Part shown: positions 9,963 through 57,300 of the stretch, in pieces
How the letters are laid out: each line of letters begins with the position of its first letter
Numbering within the stretch: the first letter of the stretch is position 1
IMG/VR virus record: IMGVR_UViG_2767802067_000003
Location: 1 to 64,000 of that record
Strand: one strand, 5' to 3'
Length of the DNA stretch: 64,000 nucleotides
DNA from: a virus
Taxonomy: Duplodnaviria; Caudoviricetes
Translations under genes and position numbers: made by a program
Notes under the pieces: generated by a model
Told to the model about the DNA's origin: nothing
The model's database searches: none
The model's input: the letters and a program-made list of their open reading frames with translations, nothing else

Positions 9963-10040
9963 AGCACCGTAGAGCAGCTCGGTCAGCTCGGCGGCCTCAT
10001 AAGCCGCAGGTCGCGGGTTCGAATCCCGCCGGTGCGACCA
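9963..10040 (+). tRNA. tRNA-Met(CAT), initiator-like
   Basis: Cloverleaf; 1:72 mismatch (A.G), A11:U24, CCA encoded. Confidence 0.85.
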
Positions 10041-10041
10041 C

Positions 10042-10119
10042 GCGTTGAGTGCTGGGACACGAACGGGCCTGTAAAGCCTGTGCCTTCGGGCTAGCGAGGT
10101 TCGATTCCTCGGCAGCGCA
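10042..10119 (+). tRNA. tRNA-Tyr(GTA), atypical D arm
   Basis: Anticodon stem CGGGC/GCCTG, variable hairpin GCC-ttcg-GGC, T arm CGAGG-TTCGATT-CCTCG. Confidence 0.7.
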
Positions 10120-10121
10120 CT

Positions 10122-10197
10122 GTGATCGTAGCTCAACGGCTAGAGCACCGCGTTGTGGTCGCGGATGTTGCGGGTTCGAGTCCCGCCGATCACCCCA
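10122..10197 (+). tRNA. tRNA-His(GTG)
   Basis: Canonical cloverleaf, C73, CCA; the -1 base is T, not G. Confidence 0.9.
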
Positions 10198-10198
10198 A

Positions 10199-10271
10199 GG
10201 CGTCGTACCCCAACGGCAGAGGGAACCGGTTCAGGACCGGTCCAGTGTGCGTTCGAATCGCACCGACGCTA
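10199..10271 (+). tRNA. tRNA-Leu(CAG), short variable loop
   Basis: GGCGTCG/CGACGCT acceptor, ACCGG-ttCAGga-CCGGT, A73. Confidence 0.85.
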
Positions 10272-10276
10272 CGCAA

Positions 10277-10351
10277 GGCGCTGTAGCCCAACCAGGCAGA
10301 GGCGGCGGTCTGAGGGACCGCAGGTTGCAGGTTCGACTCCTGTCAGCGCCA
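10277..10351 (+). tRNA. tRNA-Leu(GAG), short variable loop
   Basis: GGCGCTG/CAGCGCC acceptor, GCGGT-ctGAGgg-ACCGC, A73. Confidence 0.85.
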
Positions 10352-10356
10352 CGCAT

Positions 10357-10441
10357 GGAGGATTGGCCGAGCGGTAAGGCAGCGGCTTGCTAAGCCGTCG
10401 TCGGGGTCACACCCGCGCAGGTTCGATCCCTGCATCCTCCG
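10357..10441 (+). tRNA. tRNA-Ser(GCT)
   Basis: GGAGGAT/ATCCTCC acceptor, long variable arm, G73. Confidence 0.9.
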
Positions 10442-10492
10442 CAGGCTTCCACACTCACCGGCCCGTGAGGGTACGGCCGTGGAAGCTGCCCT

Positions 10493-10579
10493 GGAAGGTC
10501 CGGCATGTGGCGTGCCAAGCGCTCTCGAAAAGCGTGGCGGGTGACACCGCGGCGAGTTCGACTCTCGCACCTTCCGCCA
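10493..10579 (+). tRNA. tRNA-Ser(CGA), atypical D arm
   Basis: GGAAGGT/ACCTTCC acceptor, GCGCT-ctCGAaa-AGCGT, long variable arm, G73, CCA. Confidence 0.8.
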
Positions 10580-10580
10580 A

Positions 10581-10655
10581 GCGGTCGTAGCTCAGGCTGG
10601 CCAGAGCATCCGGCTCCAACCCGGAGTGCCGCAGGTTCGAATCCTGCCGACCGTG
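10581..10655 (+). tRNA. tRNA-Trp(CCA)
   Basis: TCCGG-ctCCAac-CCGGA, canonical T arm, G73. Confidence 0.9.
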
Positions 10656-10660
10656 CTCGA

Positions 10661-10732
10661 TCCCCGTTGGTGTAACCGGCAGCACAGCAGGCTCTGGACC
10701 TGCGAGTCGAGGTTCGAATCCTCGGTGGGGAG
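10661..10732 (+). tRNA. tRNA-Gln(CTG)
   Basis: TCCCCGT/GTGGGGA acceptor, GCAGG-ctCTGga-CCTGC. Confidence 0.85.
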
Positions 10733-10736
10733 CCCA

Positions 10737-10811
10737 GGCCGGGTGAGCGCAACTGGCTGACCTCGCCCGCTCAAAACGGGCGGCCTGCGGGTTCGAATCC
10801 CGCCCCGGCCA
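10737..10811 (+). tRNA. tRNA-Leu(CAA), short variable loop
   Basis: GGCCGGG/CCCGGCC acceptor, GCCCG-ctCAAaa-CGGGC, A73. Confidence 0.8.
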
Positions 10812-10824
10812 CCGTCCGGCCAGC

Positions 10825-43679: not shown

Positions 43680-43723
43680 TGTCCGATACGGTCTTGCACT
43701 AATAGGAGCGCCCAGGCTCCCTG
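43680..43723 (+). repeat. Left copy of 44-bp inverted repeat
   Basis: TGTCCGATACGGTCTTGCACTAATAGGAGCGCCCAGGCTCCCTG; 39/44 identical to the reverse complement of 56428-56471. Confidence 0.9.
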
Positions 43724-54695: not shown

Positions 54696-55634
54696 ATGAG
54701 CGGCGGTGAGGCCTTCGACCACTTGAACGACGTCCTGCGGGTCGCTCTCGCGGACCGTGACATCCACACCAGCGAGAAGCGAGGCGAGCGCCTCAGGGTG
54801 ACCGTGGCCACCGTCGAGCGTGGCCTGACGTTCCTGGCCCGTCCCCTGCTACGGGTTCCCGGTGCCCTGCTGGACGAGCAGGTCGTCGGGTACCACGAGT
54901 GGCCGCTGACCCTGCTCGGGCACATCGCCGCCGGGCAGTGCCGGGCGAAACCGCCCTACAACCGCCTGAAGCCCTCCAGCGTCCGGTACATCATGGACGG
55001 CCTGGCGGACCTGAACAGGGCAGCCGGGAACCGCCCGTACTGGTGGGAGGCCAAGGGCATGCGGCCGTGGGCCGGCCACACCAAGAACCCGGTCGCTCCG
55101 CTGGAGCACGTCGTCCTGCGCCGCGAGTTGAGCGAGCCCGGCCCCCAGCGCTGGGAGCCGTACCGGCTGCGCCTGCTCGCCGCCGTCGAGTTGCTGTGGG
55201 ACACCGGGACGACGCCCAGCGGCCTGGTCGCCGCCAACGTGGACGACTTGTCCGCTGACTTCTCGCGCATTCGACTCGCGTGGACCGCGCCAGGGCGGCA
55301 CACCGAGCGGGTGGAGCAGGAGTGCCTGCTGCACCCGAACACGACGGCCGCGTTGAAGATGTGGCTTCCGGTGCGAGACCAGGTCGTACAGGACACGCTT
55401 CGCCAGGGCCTGGAGGGCTCCCGGGCGCTGTTCATCACCCTGCGGCACACTACGGGCGCGCAGAAGGACGGATCGCCTCGGCAGGTCCCGCCCGGCGTCA
55501 GGATCCTGCGCACCGGCCTGGACACCGCTTGGCTGTCGTGGATCCGGAGAGCGAACAGCCACCACGCCGGGGAAGCCGGATGGCCGATCGCCACCGACTT
55601 CTACCGGGTCGCCCGGGGAGACGGCCCTACATAG
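54696..55634 (+). CDS. Degenerate tyrosine-recombinase-fold protein
   Basis: [27 protein letters not shown] box I with the Arg replaced; LFITL; no HxxR or catalytic Tyr box; TACGCT 6 nt before ATG. Confidence 0.6.
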
Positions 55635-55642
55635 CAAAATCT

Positions 55643-55671
55643 TTGACAAAGGCGGCGCGAGGCACTAAAAA
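55643..55671 (+). promoter_or_regulatory. Probable sigma70-type promoter
   Basis: TTGACA-17bp-TAAAAA; contains GGCACTAA at the same offset as the 6688 promoter. Confidence 0.5.
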
Positions 55672-55708
55672 TGGGTGCCGGCCACCCGTCACTCCACGAG
55701 GACTCGAC

Positions 55709-56368
55709 ATGACGCTGCCTCTGCTCGAAACGCTGCCGACCCGAGACCCTCGCATGGTGCGCGACAACAGCCCCTACCGCCGGCTGGCCCAGGAAGTCCT
55801 CAAGGCCCACGCCGAGAAGAACACCGACCAGCTCGAAGCCCTTCTCAAGGCCTACACCCTGATGGTGCATCCCCTGCCGAGCAGCCGCACCAAGGCCGTG
55901 ACCATCGTCCGCCAGGAACTCGCCGACAGTGACACGTTCTGGAACACCCCGCCCCTGGAGCGCTACGACCTCATCCCCGCCGACGCCCGCGGAGACGGAG
56001 GCCGGTACATGACCCTGCGAGGAGTCTGCCTCCTCGACGCGCAGCGCTCCGAGTACGGACCGGACGGCAAGCGCTGGAACAACCGGACCTTCAGTGAGCG
56101 GTTCGGTGTATCGCGCGGCCGCATCGACCAGCTGCTCCAGGCCGCCAAGAAGGCCGCCGACTACGATCTGACCCTGGTCGAAAACTGCTGCTCCCCGGCG
56201 CCGGGGGACCCGATCGTCGGCTTCACCACCCGCGGCAACGACGTCTCGGTGCACCGCGCCGACTGCGTCAACGTCGAGGCACTGAGCCAGCAGCCCGAGC
56301 GGCGGATGATCGACGTCGAGTGGGCGGCCACCGAGCCCTCGGTAGTCGTGGTGGACGCCAAGAGCTGA
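55709..56368 (+). CDS. HTH protein fused to a RelA/SpoT zinc-finger (conserved-cysteine) fragment
   Basis: [20 protein letters not shown] followed by [30 protein letters not shown]...[10 protein letters not shown]. Confidence 0.8.
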
Positions 56369-56427: not shown

Positions 56428-56471
56428 CAGGCAGCCTCGGCGCTCCTATTAGTGCAACACGGCATCGGACA
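56428..56471 (-). repeat. Right copy of 44-bp inverted repeat
   Basis: Reverse complement TGTCCGATGCCGTGTTGCACTAATAGGAGCGCCGAGGCTGCCTG. Confidence 0.9.
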
Positions 56472-56499
56472 ATGCGTTGCACTAGGGGTGGCGAGTGCT

Positions 56500-57300
56500 T
56501 CAGGCGCCGGCCAGGTGAACAGCCCAGGCTGCGGCGGCTTCACCCGACCAGGCGGCCGCGCTGGTGCTGTGCCCGCAGGAGCAGGTGATGGTGTGGTTCC
56601 CGCGGCCGCCGCGCTGGGTGGGGTAGTGGTCGCTCAGGTGGCGGCCGTAGGGCTGGTGGTTGTCGCAGACACGGCCGACGTTGGCGTACGACATCCAGTA
56701 GCCCGTGATGGTCCCGGAGGGGTCGTAGTCACGGCTGCAGTCCGGGTGGAGGCACGTCTCGCGGGACAGGTACTTGGTCGGCAGGCGGCGGGAGATGTGC
56801 TCGTGGGCGAGCTTGGCCCATTGGGCGTCCGCCACCGGGTGGTGATGGTCTGCTGGCCGCGGCGGCATGTCGGGCATCCCCGCGAGCGTCCGCAGGGTGC
56901 GCAGGTCGTTGACGTGCATCGGGATCTGACGGTGGTTGTTGTTCCAGTCACTGTCGAAGAGCATCTGCAGGTTCACTTCGTCGCGGGCGCCGTAGTAGGC
57001 GTACAGCTCGGCGGGCTCGTCGCCGGGGGTCGCGGTGAACCAGGCGGTCAGGTCGTCGCGAATCTGCTCGGGGGTCTTCACGTCCGGGTGCGCGAGGTCG
57101 AGTTCGCCTGCGCGGGTGGGCAGGTGAGGCCAGACGTTGTCGCGTAGCCAGGGGTGGGCGCGGGCGGCGTCCTGGTCCATGGCCGCGTTCACGGCGAAGT
57201 ACGTGTTGCCGGAGCCGTCGGTGATGGCGAGTTCGAGCAGTCCCCCGATGGTCCGGCGGTCGGGGTGGTACTCGGTGTCGAGGTAGGTGTGTCGGGTCAC
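56500..57300 (-). CDS. Rv2179c/RNase AS-like DEDDh 3'-5' exoribonuclease with a Cys/His tail
   Basis: YLDTEY...LAIT...YFAV...WLRDNV..L...ELYAYYGARD...HHPVADA. Confidence 0.75.
   Translation of the reverse strand: MTRHTYLDTEYHPDRRTIGGLLELAITDGSGNTYFAVNAAMDQDAARAHPWLRDNVWPHLPTRAGELDLAHPDVKTPEQIRDDLTAWFTATPGDEPAELYAYYGARDEVNLQMLFDSDWNNNHRQIPMHVNDLRTLRTLAGMPDMPPRPADHHHPVADAQWAKLAHEHISRRLPTKYLSRETCLHPDCSRDYDPSGTITGYWMSYANVGRVCDNHQPYGRHLSDHYPTQRGGRGNHTITCSCGHSTSAAAWSGEAAAAWAVHLAGA

What the first reader, a model, noticed from the sequence alone, without database searches (positions are those of the whole stretch)
55709..56368. Phage HTH protein carrying a captured RelA zinc-finger (ribosome-binding) domain
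Seen: the C-terminal ~60 aa (from about 56174) read [46 protein letters not shown]. This closely follows the Rel C-terminal motif CCxPxPGDxIxGxxTRGxGVSVHRxDCxN, as recalled for actinomycete Rel ([30 protein letters not shown]). It stops just before the ACT/RRM domain and is fused to a sigma-region-4-like HTH, with its own promoter. Known: this domain contacts the ribosomal A-site finger, and excess RelA C-terminal domain suppresses (p)ppGpp accumulation in E. coli. Inference: a decoy or modulator of the stringent response, which in Streptomyces also gates antibiotic production; it could work together with the tRNA array.
Basis: partly seen in the sequence, partly recalled or inferred. Interest (0 to 1): 0.8.

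Follow-up and report, generated by a model that had tools for sequence, protein, structure and literature searches.

The report
Prophage regulator with captured Rel zinc-finger
A small regulator-like gene of a prophage in a Kitasatospora-type actinomycete has recently picked up, in frame, a 56-codon piece of a host rel gene (the core of the ribosome-binding zinc-finger domain), but it is found only once and shows no sign yet of being kept by selection.

Summary
Window 55709-56368 (+) encodes a 219-aa protein. Residues 160-215 are homologous to the Rel/RelA zinc-finger (ZFD/RIS) domain (M. smegmatis Rel on the ribosome, E 4.8e-16).

The window lies in a siphovirus-like prophage inside an 8.8-Mb actinomycete genome that has its own intact rel. 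The only relative of the gene, in a Kitasatospora prophage, is 90% identical over residues 1-158 but ends five codons later, with no ZFD. So the ZFD is a net 168-nt in-frame insert in the C-terminal tail. It is 85-92% identical in DNA to same-genus rel genes and 87% to the resident host's.

The piece starts at the Cys-Cys pair, so it lacks the first two strands of the domain. It keeps all four Zn ligands and the helix that docks on the A-site finger.

Since capture it shows 8 non-synonymous to 1 synonymous private changes, including Gly to Asp at a near-invariant glycine. This rejects Rel-like constraint (P=2e-4) and fits neutrality.

The fusion is a singleton in every collection searched. The N-terminal part is an orphan with only weak sigma-region-4-like HTH signals.

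Verdict: a young domain capture. A stringent-response decoy is possible but unsupported.

The parts
55643..55672 (+). sigma-70-type promoter-like site, TTGACA-N18-AAAAAT (also readable as N17-TAAAAA)
   Evidence: 1 site found against 0.2 expected in shuffles. Both hexamers are identical in the related Kitasatospora prophage. This is a consensus match only; no transcript data.
55698..55702 (+). Shine-Dalgarno-like GAGGA, 6 nt before the ATG
   Evidence: Read directly from the sequence; conserved in L005.
55709..56368 (+). Fusion gene, 219 aa (P0001)
   Evidence: The start is supported by the RBS and by the conserved N-terminus of the homologue P0003.
55709..56182 (+). Ancestral orphan N-terminal module (residues 1-158), all-alpha by prediction
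   Evidence: 90% identical to P0003/L005; dN/dS 0.29 against L005. No other relative among 1.84 billion representatives, 166 other genomes of the genus, viral contigs or plasmids.
56081..56161 (+). Putative helix-turn-helix (residues ~125-151: FSERFGVS / [16 protein letters not shown])
   Evidence: AF2 helices 125-132 and 136-151 at pLDDT 55-63. Pfam Sigma70_r4 E 0.098, below cutoff. Non-significant Foldseek matches to sigma region 4 (1l0o_C, 3n97_A). Atlas structural neighbours are sigma factors at TM ~0.35. Weak overall.
56183..56350 (+). Net 168-nt (56-codon) in-frame insert derived from a rel gene: ZFD from the Cys-Cys pair to the first residues of RRM beta1 (residues 159-214)
   Evidence: Absent from L005 and L006, where flanking homology is 90-91%. 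BLAST homology to rel covers window 56185-56354: 87% to the host's own rel (L001) and 85-92% to rel of the congeners listed. The junctions share only 2-6 nt of similarity.
56186..56266 (+). Zn-ligand set C160, C161, H182, C186 (E. coli C612, C613, H634, C638)
   Evidence: Alignment to 5iqr_8 and 8fr8_I. These columns are invariant or near-invariant in Rel alignments.
56240..56242 (+). Asp178 in place of the near-invariant Gly of the RGxGVSVH motif
   Evidence: Gly in 30 of 30 same-genus rel genes and in at least 90% of the wider alignment.
56264..56293 (+). [quoted passage not shown]
   Evidence: Numbering; role from PMC4974054. Every residue also occurs in same-genus Rel, and the string is identical to the nearest orthologues.
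56351..56368 (+). Remnant of the original C-terminal tail (V-D-A-K-S-stop; VEEDAES-stop in the relative)
56428..56471 (.). Right arm of a 44-nt inverted repeat; the left arm is at 43680-43723. The repeats bracket a 12.8-kb block of which this is the last gene
   Evidence: 89% complementary. Homology to L005 stops exactly at 56471.

Best explanation
This is a young domain capture, not an established system. The gene's ancestral form is a ~160-aa, all-alpha, probably HTH DNA-binding protein. It is known only from a tiny lineage of Kitasatospora-type prophages. It is transcribed from its own conserved consensus promoter at the border between the recombinase/partition block and the early recombination/replication genes. 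In this one element, a 56-codon segment of a same-genus rel gene was joined in frame into the acidic C-terminal tail, five codons before the stop. The mechanism was most likely illegitimate end-joining or template switching at 2-6 nt of similarity (inferred). The segment runs from the Cys-Cys pair of the ZFD to the first residues of the RRM. The protein therefore most likely still works through its N-terminal module, as a regulator of the element. It carries a partial Rel zinc finger as a tolerated passenger at a permissive site. If the tail does anything, the most likely activity is weak binding to the A-site finger / bridge B1a of the 70S ribosome, where Rel anchors. The capture is shown. 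The passenger status and any ribosome binding are inferred.
For: Capture and polarity. The homologue P0003 is 90% identical over residues 1-158 and ends VEEDAES-stop. Flanks align at 90-91% on both sides of a segment that is absent from L005 and L006. That segment is 85-92% identical to rel in the congeners listed and matches rel in nearly every genome of the family searched. Synonymous distance to the nearest rel (0.08) is smaller than that between the two prophage genes (0.19).

Relaxed constraint. Of 9 nucleotide states private to the insert, 8 are non-synonymous. All 8 fall at positions with no such residue in 30 same-genus rel genes, and there is one extra Arg codon. P(at least 8 of 9) is 2e-4 under the rel-like omega of 0.12, and the result is compatible with neutrality (P 0.3-0.5). 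Pairwise omega to the nearest rel genes is 0.6-1.1, against 0.12 among rel genes. The near-invariant Gly is replaced by Asp.

Incomplete domain. The host Rel model has two strands (228-230 and 238-240, with near-invariant V230 and G232) before the Cys-Cys pair, and these are not in the insert. The RIS domain is E. coli 585-660 and residues 590-595 contact 16S rRNA (PMC4974054). The ACT/RRM partner of the 'superdomain' is absent.

Singleton. No second fusion was found in 5.8 billion proteins; every other protein listed with a ZFD match also carries Rel AH or ACT families. It is on one contig only and was not found in 400 family genomes or 166 other genus genomes.

The gene itself is real. The N-terminal part has dN/dS 0.29, and the promoter, RBS and start are conserved.
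Against: The insert is in the right orientation and frame and returns to the original frame and stop. That is roughly a 1-in-18 outcome for a random insertion, although the finding was noticed precisely because it is in frame. All four Zn ligands, 19 of 20 near-invariant ZFD columns and the entire A-site-finger-docking helix are intact; with only 8 changes this is not significant (P=0.12). AF2 models residues 160-209 confidently (pLDDT 82-85), and they superpose on M. smegmatis Rel at 2.3 A. A strong consensus promoter would allow the high expression a decoy needs. Four of the eight replacements sit at the exposed stub of the RRM strand and could be adaptive 'healing'. A count of 8:1 is also what early positive selection would look like. 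Phages are now known to antagonise RelA/SpoT by other means (T7 portal Gp8, PMC13483052).
Confidence: 0.55

Rival explanations
1. Functional ribosome-directed tail. The captured ZFD core binds the A-site finger / bridge B1a of host ribosomes. Expressed from a strong promoter, it either competes with Rel for its anchoring site and blunts (p)ppGpp synthesis, or it tethers the HTH regulator to ribosomes so that the element's switch reads the translational state.
For: The Zn ligands and the helix equivalent to RelA 638-647, which docks on 23S residues 883-885 and 892-894, are fully conserved (PMC4974054). ZFD-ASF contact is the key anchoring point of RelA (PMC5829649). The ZFD model is confident. 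A consensus promoter is present. The capture is in frame and restores the original stop. There is precedent for phage antagonism of RelA/SpoT (PMC13483052).
Against: It is a singleton, and the sister prophage does well without it. Post-capture change is 8 non-synonymous to 1 synonymous and rejects conservation of the Rel function. The near-invariant turn Gly is replaced by Asp. The piece lacks the first two strands, the 16S-contacting N-terminus of RIS, and the ACT domain that forms the ribosome-anchoring superdomain with RIS (PMC4974054). Dominant-negative effects were seen only with the whole 339-aa CTD at high copy and were RelA-independent (PMC6719525). No isolated ZFD is known to bind ribosomes, as far as the papers read here show.
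Confidence: 0.27
2. Repurposed module unrelated to ribosomes. The small Zn-binding beta-hairpin-helix unit serves the regulator itself, for example as a Zn- or redox-dependent dimerisation or protein-binding tail. [quoted passage not shown]
For: The fast, mostly non-synonymous change after capture is what a change of function would produce. ZFD-like folds are used as protein-recognition modules in the RSH world (CapRel pseudo-ZFD, PMC9712102). Earlier work proposed ZFD residues C612, D637 and C638 in RelA self-association, and all three are kept here (discussed and contested in PMC6719525).
Against: No partner is known. The CapRel pseudo-ZFD lacks the cysteines and is only topologically analogous (PMC9712102). 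The dimerisation model for RelA was not upheld (PMC6719525). The singleton status argues against any established role.
Confidence: 0.12
3. Assembly or annotation artefact: a chimeric contig or a non-coding stretch.
Against: The insert differs from the same genome's own rel by 13%, so it cannot be mis-joined reads of that gene. It is only ~170 nt long, with phage sequence on both sides, and it carries private substitutions and an in-frame extra codon. The surrounding gene is conserved with dN/dS 0.29.
Confidence: 0.03

Closest known systems
ZFD / RIS / CC domain of long RelA-SpoT homologues (Rel of actinomycetes; E. coli RelA 585-660)
   Same: There is direct sequence homology: 78-82% amino-acid identity to Kitasatospora-type Rel and E 4.8e-16 to M. 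smegmatis Rel. It has the same C-C-H-C ligand set, the same beta-hairpin plus helix, and an identical A-site-finger-docking helix.
   Different: It is only the C-terminal ~70% of the domain. It has no AH, TGS, ACT/RRM or catalytic domains. Gly is replaced by Asp in RGxGVSVH. It evolves without Rel-like constraint. It sits at the C-terminus of an unrelated prophage protein.
[quoted passage not shown]
   Same: This is the concept of a catalytically dead Rel fragment occupying ribosomes (PMC6719525).
   Different: That fragment holds four domains and acts only at high copy. Its effect is a RelA-independent slowing of translation. The present piece is 56 residues of one domain.
Phage antagonists and mimics of the stringent response (T7 portal Gp8, which binds RelA/SpoT; prophage-borne toxSAS/CapRel systems with a pseudo-ZFD)
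   Same: They are mobile-element proteins that touch the RSH system, and they show a ZFD-like fold used as a recognition module (PMC13483052, PMC9712102).
   Different: None is a copy of the host Rel ZFD. Gp8 is a structural protein acting on the enzymes. The CapRel pseudo-ZFD lacks the cysteines and belongs to a host defence protein.
Sigma-70 region 4 / small phage HTH regulators
   Same: There is a helix-turn-helix pattern near the C-terminus of the ancestral module, with weak profile and structure hints.
   Different: All scores are below the family thresholds. There is no region 2 and there are no detectable relatives, so membership is not established.

Membership tests
RelA/SpoT ZFD (RIS/CC) domain | Significant sequence homology to the ZFD segment of long RSH proteins | tested here: met
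   8fr8_I E 4.8e-16, 6htq_x 3.4e-12, 5iqr_8 3.3e-10. TIGR00691 positions 540-609, E 1e-13. DNA 85-92% identical to rel. The collection's precomputed Pfam list gives PF28438 alone for this protein. The local Pfam copy gives only RelA_AH_RIS at E 0.15.
RelA/SpoT ZFD (RIS/CC) domain | Cys-Cys...His...Cys zinc-ligand set | tested here: met
   C160, C161, H182 and C186 align with E. coli C612, C613, H634 and C638. The columns are invariant or near-invariant. Zinc binding itself was not tested.
RelA/SpoT ZFD (RIS/CC) domain | Complete domain: strands before the Cys-Cys pair plus hairpin, helix and last strand (E. coli 585/593-657/660) | tested here: not met
   The insert starts at the Cys-Cys pair. 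The host Rel model has strands 228-230 and 238-240, and near-invariant V230 and G232, upstream of C243. Domain limits come from PMC4974054 and PMC7797070.
RelA/SpoT ZFD (RIS/CC) domain | Conserved RGxGVSVH hairpin motif | tested here: not met
   The sequence is RGNDVSVH. Gly178 is replaced by Asp, where 30 of 30 congeneric rel genes and at least 90% of the wider alignment have Gly.
RelA/SpoT ZFD (RIS/CC) domain | Helix that docks on the A-site finger (E. coli 638-647) | tested here: met
   [10 protein letters not shown] is identical to the nearest Rel orthologues. Role from PMC4974054.
RelA/SpoT ZFD (RIS/CC) domain | Binds the 70S ribosome at bridge B1a | not testable with these tools
   Needs co-sedimentation or cryo-EM.
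RelA/SpoT ZFD (RIS/CC) domain | Purifying selection typical of rel | tested here: not met
   8 non-synonymous to 1 synonymous private changes; P=2e-4 under omega 0.12.
Long RSH enzyme (Rel/RelA/SpoT) | Hydrolase and synthetase domains, TGS, AH and ACT/RRM | tested here: not met
   Only profile positions 540-609 of 687 are matched. The rest of the protein is unrelated.
Sigma-70 region 4 HTH | Profile match above the Pfam gathering score | tested here: not met
   PF04545 E 0.098, 12.6 bits against 24.1.
Sigma-70 region 4 HTH | Three-helix region-4 fold | tested here: inconclusive
   The AF2 model is poor here (pLDDT 55-63). Foldseek rows 1l0o_C and 3n97_A have E > 0.5. Atlas neighbours have TM ~0.35.

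The most novel reading that the evidence does not exclude
A temperate actinophage has co-opted the ribosome-anchoring core of its host's stringent factor. The HTH-ZFD fusion, made from a strong promoter in the lysogen or early in infection, would sit on the A-site finger. It would then either out-compete Rel, lowering (p)ppGpp and, in this group of bacteria, everything that depends on it (including antibiotic production), or it would couple the element's own genetic switch to the state of the ribosome pool. The 8:1 excess of amino-acid changes would then be early adaptive tuning rather than decay.
Probability: 0.25. Interest if true: 0.8.

Novelty: new variant of a known kind. Interest (0 to 1): 0.45.

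Why it matters
Capture of host gene pieces by phages is well known, but a clean, datable case with both the 'before' allele and the donor gene in hand is rare. Here the insert is in frame and domain-sized, and it joins a fragment of a central stress regulator to a phage regulator. It gives a natural experiment on how new domain combinations arise and whether they are kept. If the tail proves active, it would be a new way for a mobile element to interfere with, or listen to, the stringent response. It would also give a minimal Rel fragment useful for dissecting ribosome anchoring. If it is inert, it is a useful caution: an intact, well-folding, promoter-driven 'captured domain' need not be a functional weapon.

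Tried and rejected
- Local Pfam and PHROGs on the whole protein gave nothing at E<=1 and E<=0.1.
- On sub-segments, Pfam gave only sub-threshold Sigma70_r4 and RelA_AH_RIS.
- megablast of the 4-kb neighbourhood against phage records: no match.
- tblastn against phage records found only the ZFD, in what look like host rel genes inside mis-labelled or contaminated 'phage' records.
- Plasmid records: no match to the N-terminal module.
- IMG/VR viral contigs: no relative.
- Proteins of 30-119 aa sharing words with the ZFD: none.
- Second matches to the insert in G324, G338 and G380 are 78-80% identical over about 80 nt. I take them to be a second RSH paralogue, not further fusions; their genes were not inspected.
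- RNA folds of the leader and of the 3' flank are no better than shuffles (z -0.5 and -0.2). I therefore do not call a terminator or a leader structure.
- Complex prediction was not used, because no protein-protein binding is claimed.
- A link to the tRNA array at 9963-10813 was considered and dropped for lack of any evidence.
- Loss of the ZFD in the relative, instead of gain here, was considered. A deletion between the GTCGAA and GTCGTG repeats would not give the relative's VEEDAES tail without three further changes. The insert's synonymous distance to rel is also smaller than that between the two prophages. Gain is therefore preferred, though two taxa cannot prove polarity.

Full report
**What is there.**
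Window 55709-56368 (+) is an open frame of 219 codons. GAGGA lies six bases before the ATG. The only sigma-70-type promoter match in the surrounding 4.5 kb is TTGACA-N18-AAAAAT at 55643-55672, against 0.2 expected.

Its resemblance to Rel is not a recollection artefact.
- phmmer against all PDB chains returns M. smegmatis Rel on the ribosome (8fr8_I, E 4.8e-16), B. subtilis Rel (6htq_x, 3.4e-12) and E. coli RelA (5iqr_8, residues 609-659, 3.3e-10).
- NCBIfam TIGR00691 matches at profile positions 540-609 of 687.
- By the E. coli numbering, C160, C161, H182, D185 and C186 correspond to C612, C613, H634, D637 and C638.

**Context.**
The window is G000:C13:80200-144199 of an 8.78-Mb, 253-contig actinomycete genome. 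It carries terminase, portal, tape-measure and endolysin genes, a ParA-like gene, a tyrosine integrase, a Sak4-like gene and a PD-(D/E)XK nuclease, plus ten tRNA genes. The closest isolated phage has only 52% identity in its terminase.

Left of the window the same contig holds ordinary bacterial genes, including lanthipeptide LanB/LanC and NUDIX. This is therefore a prophage-like element in a bacterial contig. The host has an intact 809-residue rel frame on C22 and a second long-RSH-like frame on C18.

**How the fusion arose.**
The word-indexed search of 5.8 billion proteins found one relative of the N-terminal part: a 163-aa hypothetical protein of Kitasatospora sp. NPDC085464 (P0003). It is 90% identical over residues 1-158 and then ends VEEDAES-stop. 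Its contig (L005) and a second assembly (L006) are syntenic prophages.

DNA alignment shows three blocks.
- Window 54246-56182 matches L005 at 91%.
- Window 56345-56471 matches at 90%.
- The stretch between them is absent from L005 but is 87% identical to the host's own rel (window 56185-56354).

The fusion is 56 codons longer than the relative. The insert enters after GTC GAA and leaves at GTG|GAC GCC, sharing only 2-6 nt with either parent. It restores the original frame and stop. I infer illegitimate end-joining or template switching.

In 400 genomes of the family, the segment matches rel in all but three. Identity is 84-92% in the matches listed and lower in more distant genera; the best is 92% in a congener. 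No other genome holds the phage-rel junction. Second matches in three genomes are 78-80% identical, which I take to be a second RSH paralogue.

**How much of the domain was taken.**
The RIS/ZFD domain is E. coli RelA 585-660: a four-stranded sheet and a short helix. [quoted passage not shown] RIS and ACT together form the ribosome-anchoring superdomain (PMC4974054). Truncation studies place the domain at 593-657 in E. coli and 584-645 in B. subtilis (PMC7797070).

An AF2 model of the host Rel C-terminal region (mean pLDDT 76) has strands at 228-230 and 238-240 before the Cys-Cys pair at 243-244. It then has a hairpin at 252-256/262-266, a helix at 270-275 and a strand at 285-287, and the RRM starts at 295.

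The insert corresponds to 243-297 only. It lacks the first two strands, with their near-invariant Val and Gly, and the 16S-contacting N-terminus. It includes three residues of RRM beta1. It keeps the four ligands and the docking helix, which is identical to that of the nearest orthologues.

In the AF2 model of the fusion, the ZFD part is confident (pLDDT 82-85) and superposes on 8fr8_I at 2.3 A over 49 residues. The rest of the model is poor.

**Selection.**
Against 30 same-genus rel genes, the insert has eight amino-acid states seen in none of them. These are Thr to Ser, Val to Ala, Val/Ile to Thr and Gly to Asp in the ZFD core, and Gln to Glu, Ser to Pro, Phe to Val and Leu to Val at the RRM stub. 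There is also one extra Arg codon.

- Of nine private nucleotide states, eight are non-synonymous.
- Among rel genes omega is 0.12; insert against the nearest rel genes it is 0.6-1.1.
- Under rel-like constraint, at least 8 of 9 has P=2e-4. Under neutrality P is 0.3-0.5.
- Gly178 to Asp hits a column that is Gly in at least 90% of a wider Rel alignment.
- Retention of 19 of 20 near-invariant columns is not significant with so few changes (P=0.12).
- By contrast the N-terminal 158 codons have dN/dS 0.29 between the two prophages, so the gene as such is maintained.

**Distribution.**
- The exhaustive phmmer search of 1.84 billion representatives with the tail-less relative found only itself at a meaningful score.
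- None of the 166 other genomes of the genus has the N-terminal module.
- It was not found in viral contigs or plasmids.
- Every other listed protein of 120-384 aa with a ZFD match also carries Rel AH and/or ACT families, so it is a Rel fragment. One odd citrate-synthase chimera sits on a 2-kb contig.
- The fusion is recorded on one contig only.

**The N-terminal module.**
It is predicted all-helical, with a helix-turn-helix at about residues 125-151. The support is weak: Sigma70_r4 scores E 0.098, below threshold. Foldseek rows for sigma region 4 are not significant. The Atlas's own model has sigma factors as nearest structures at TM ~0.35. 'HTH regulator' is therefore a reasonable but unproven label.

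**Reading.**
The capture is certain. The functional claim is not supported.
- The literature precedent involves the whole four-domain CTD at high copy, with RelA-independent effects, and low-level expression had no effect on RelA (PMC6719525).
- The present piece is about 70% of one domain and lacks most of the contacts that anchor Rel.
- Points in its favour remain: intact ligands and docking helix, in-frame exit, a strong conserved promoter, and the fact that phages do target RelA/SpoT (PMC13483052).

I put about 0.55 on a young, tolerated passenger on a working regulator. I put about 0.27 on a ribosome-directed function, about 0.12 on another acquired role, and about 0.03 on an artefact.

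Noticed in passing
window 43680-43723 and 56428-56471: 44-nt inverted repeats (89% complementary) bracket a 12.8-kb block holding the ParA-like gene, the recombinases and this gene. Homology to the related prophage L005 stops exactly at the right arm's end (56471) and resumes at 57174.
   Followed up: partly
window 56472-57173 versus L005 10596-12222: A mosaic swap lies just right of the gene. The window has a minus-strand RNase H-like gene (56500-57300, phrog_2259 E 4e-21). The relative has a 179-aa gene and an Exo_endo_phos-like gene instead.
   Followed up: no
window 55673-55687: A short palindrome, GGGTGCCGGCCACCC, lies between the -10 box and the RBS and is conserved in L005. On the minus strand it reads as a terminator-like hairpin followed by the T-run that is the complement of the -10 box. 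It could be an operator or a bidirectional element. The RNA fold is not better than shuffles.
   Followed up: partly
window 54696-55634: The 312-aa gene just upstream has no Pfam or PHROG match, yet it is conserved and syntenic in L005 (320 aa) next to the tyrosine integrase.
   Followed up: no
G000:C18:97033-97938 (L002/L004): The host has a second long-RSH-like open frame of 748 aa besides rel on C22. Similar second matches (78-80% over the ZFD) occur in G324, G338 and G380.
   Followed up: partly
window 9963-10813: An array of ten tRNA genes (Met, Tyr, His, 3 Leu, 2 Ser, Trp, Gln) lies in the element, 45 kb from the finding.
   Followed up: no
G000:C13:69036-73056 (L044 8837-12857): A class I lanthipeptide dehydratase (LanB) and cyclase (LanC) pair lies on the same contig, left of the window. 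This shows ordinary bacterial DNA on that side of the element.
   Followed up: no
protein P0034 (ENA contig of 1972 bp): A 367-aa predicted protein combines a citrate-synthase family hit with the Rel AH/ZFD families. It is probably a chimeric or frameshifted metagenome contig.
   Followed up: no
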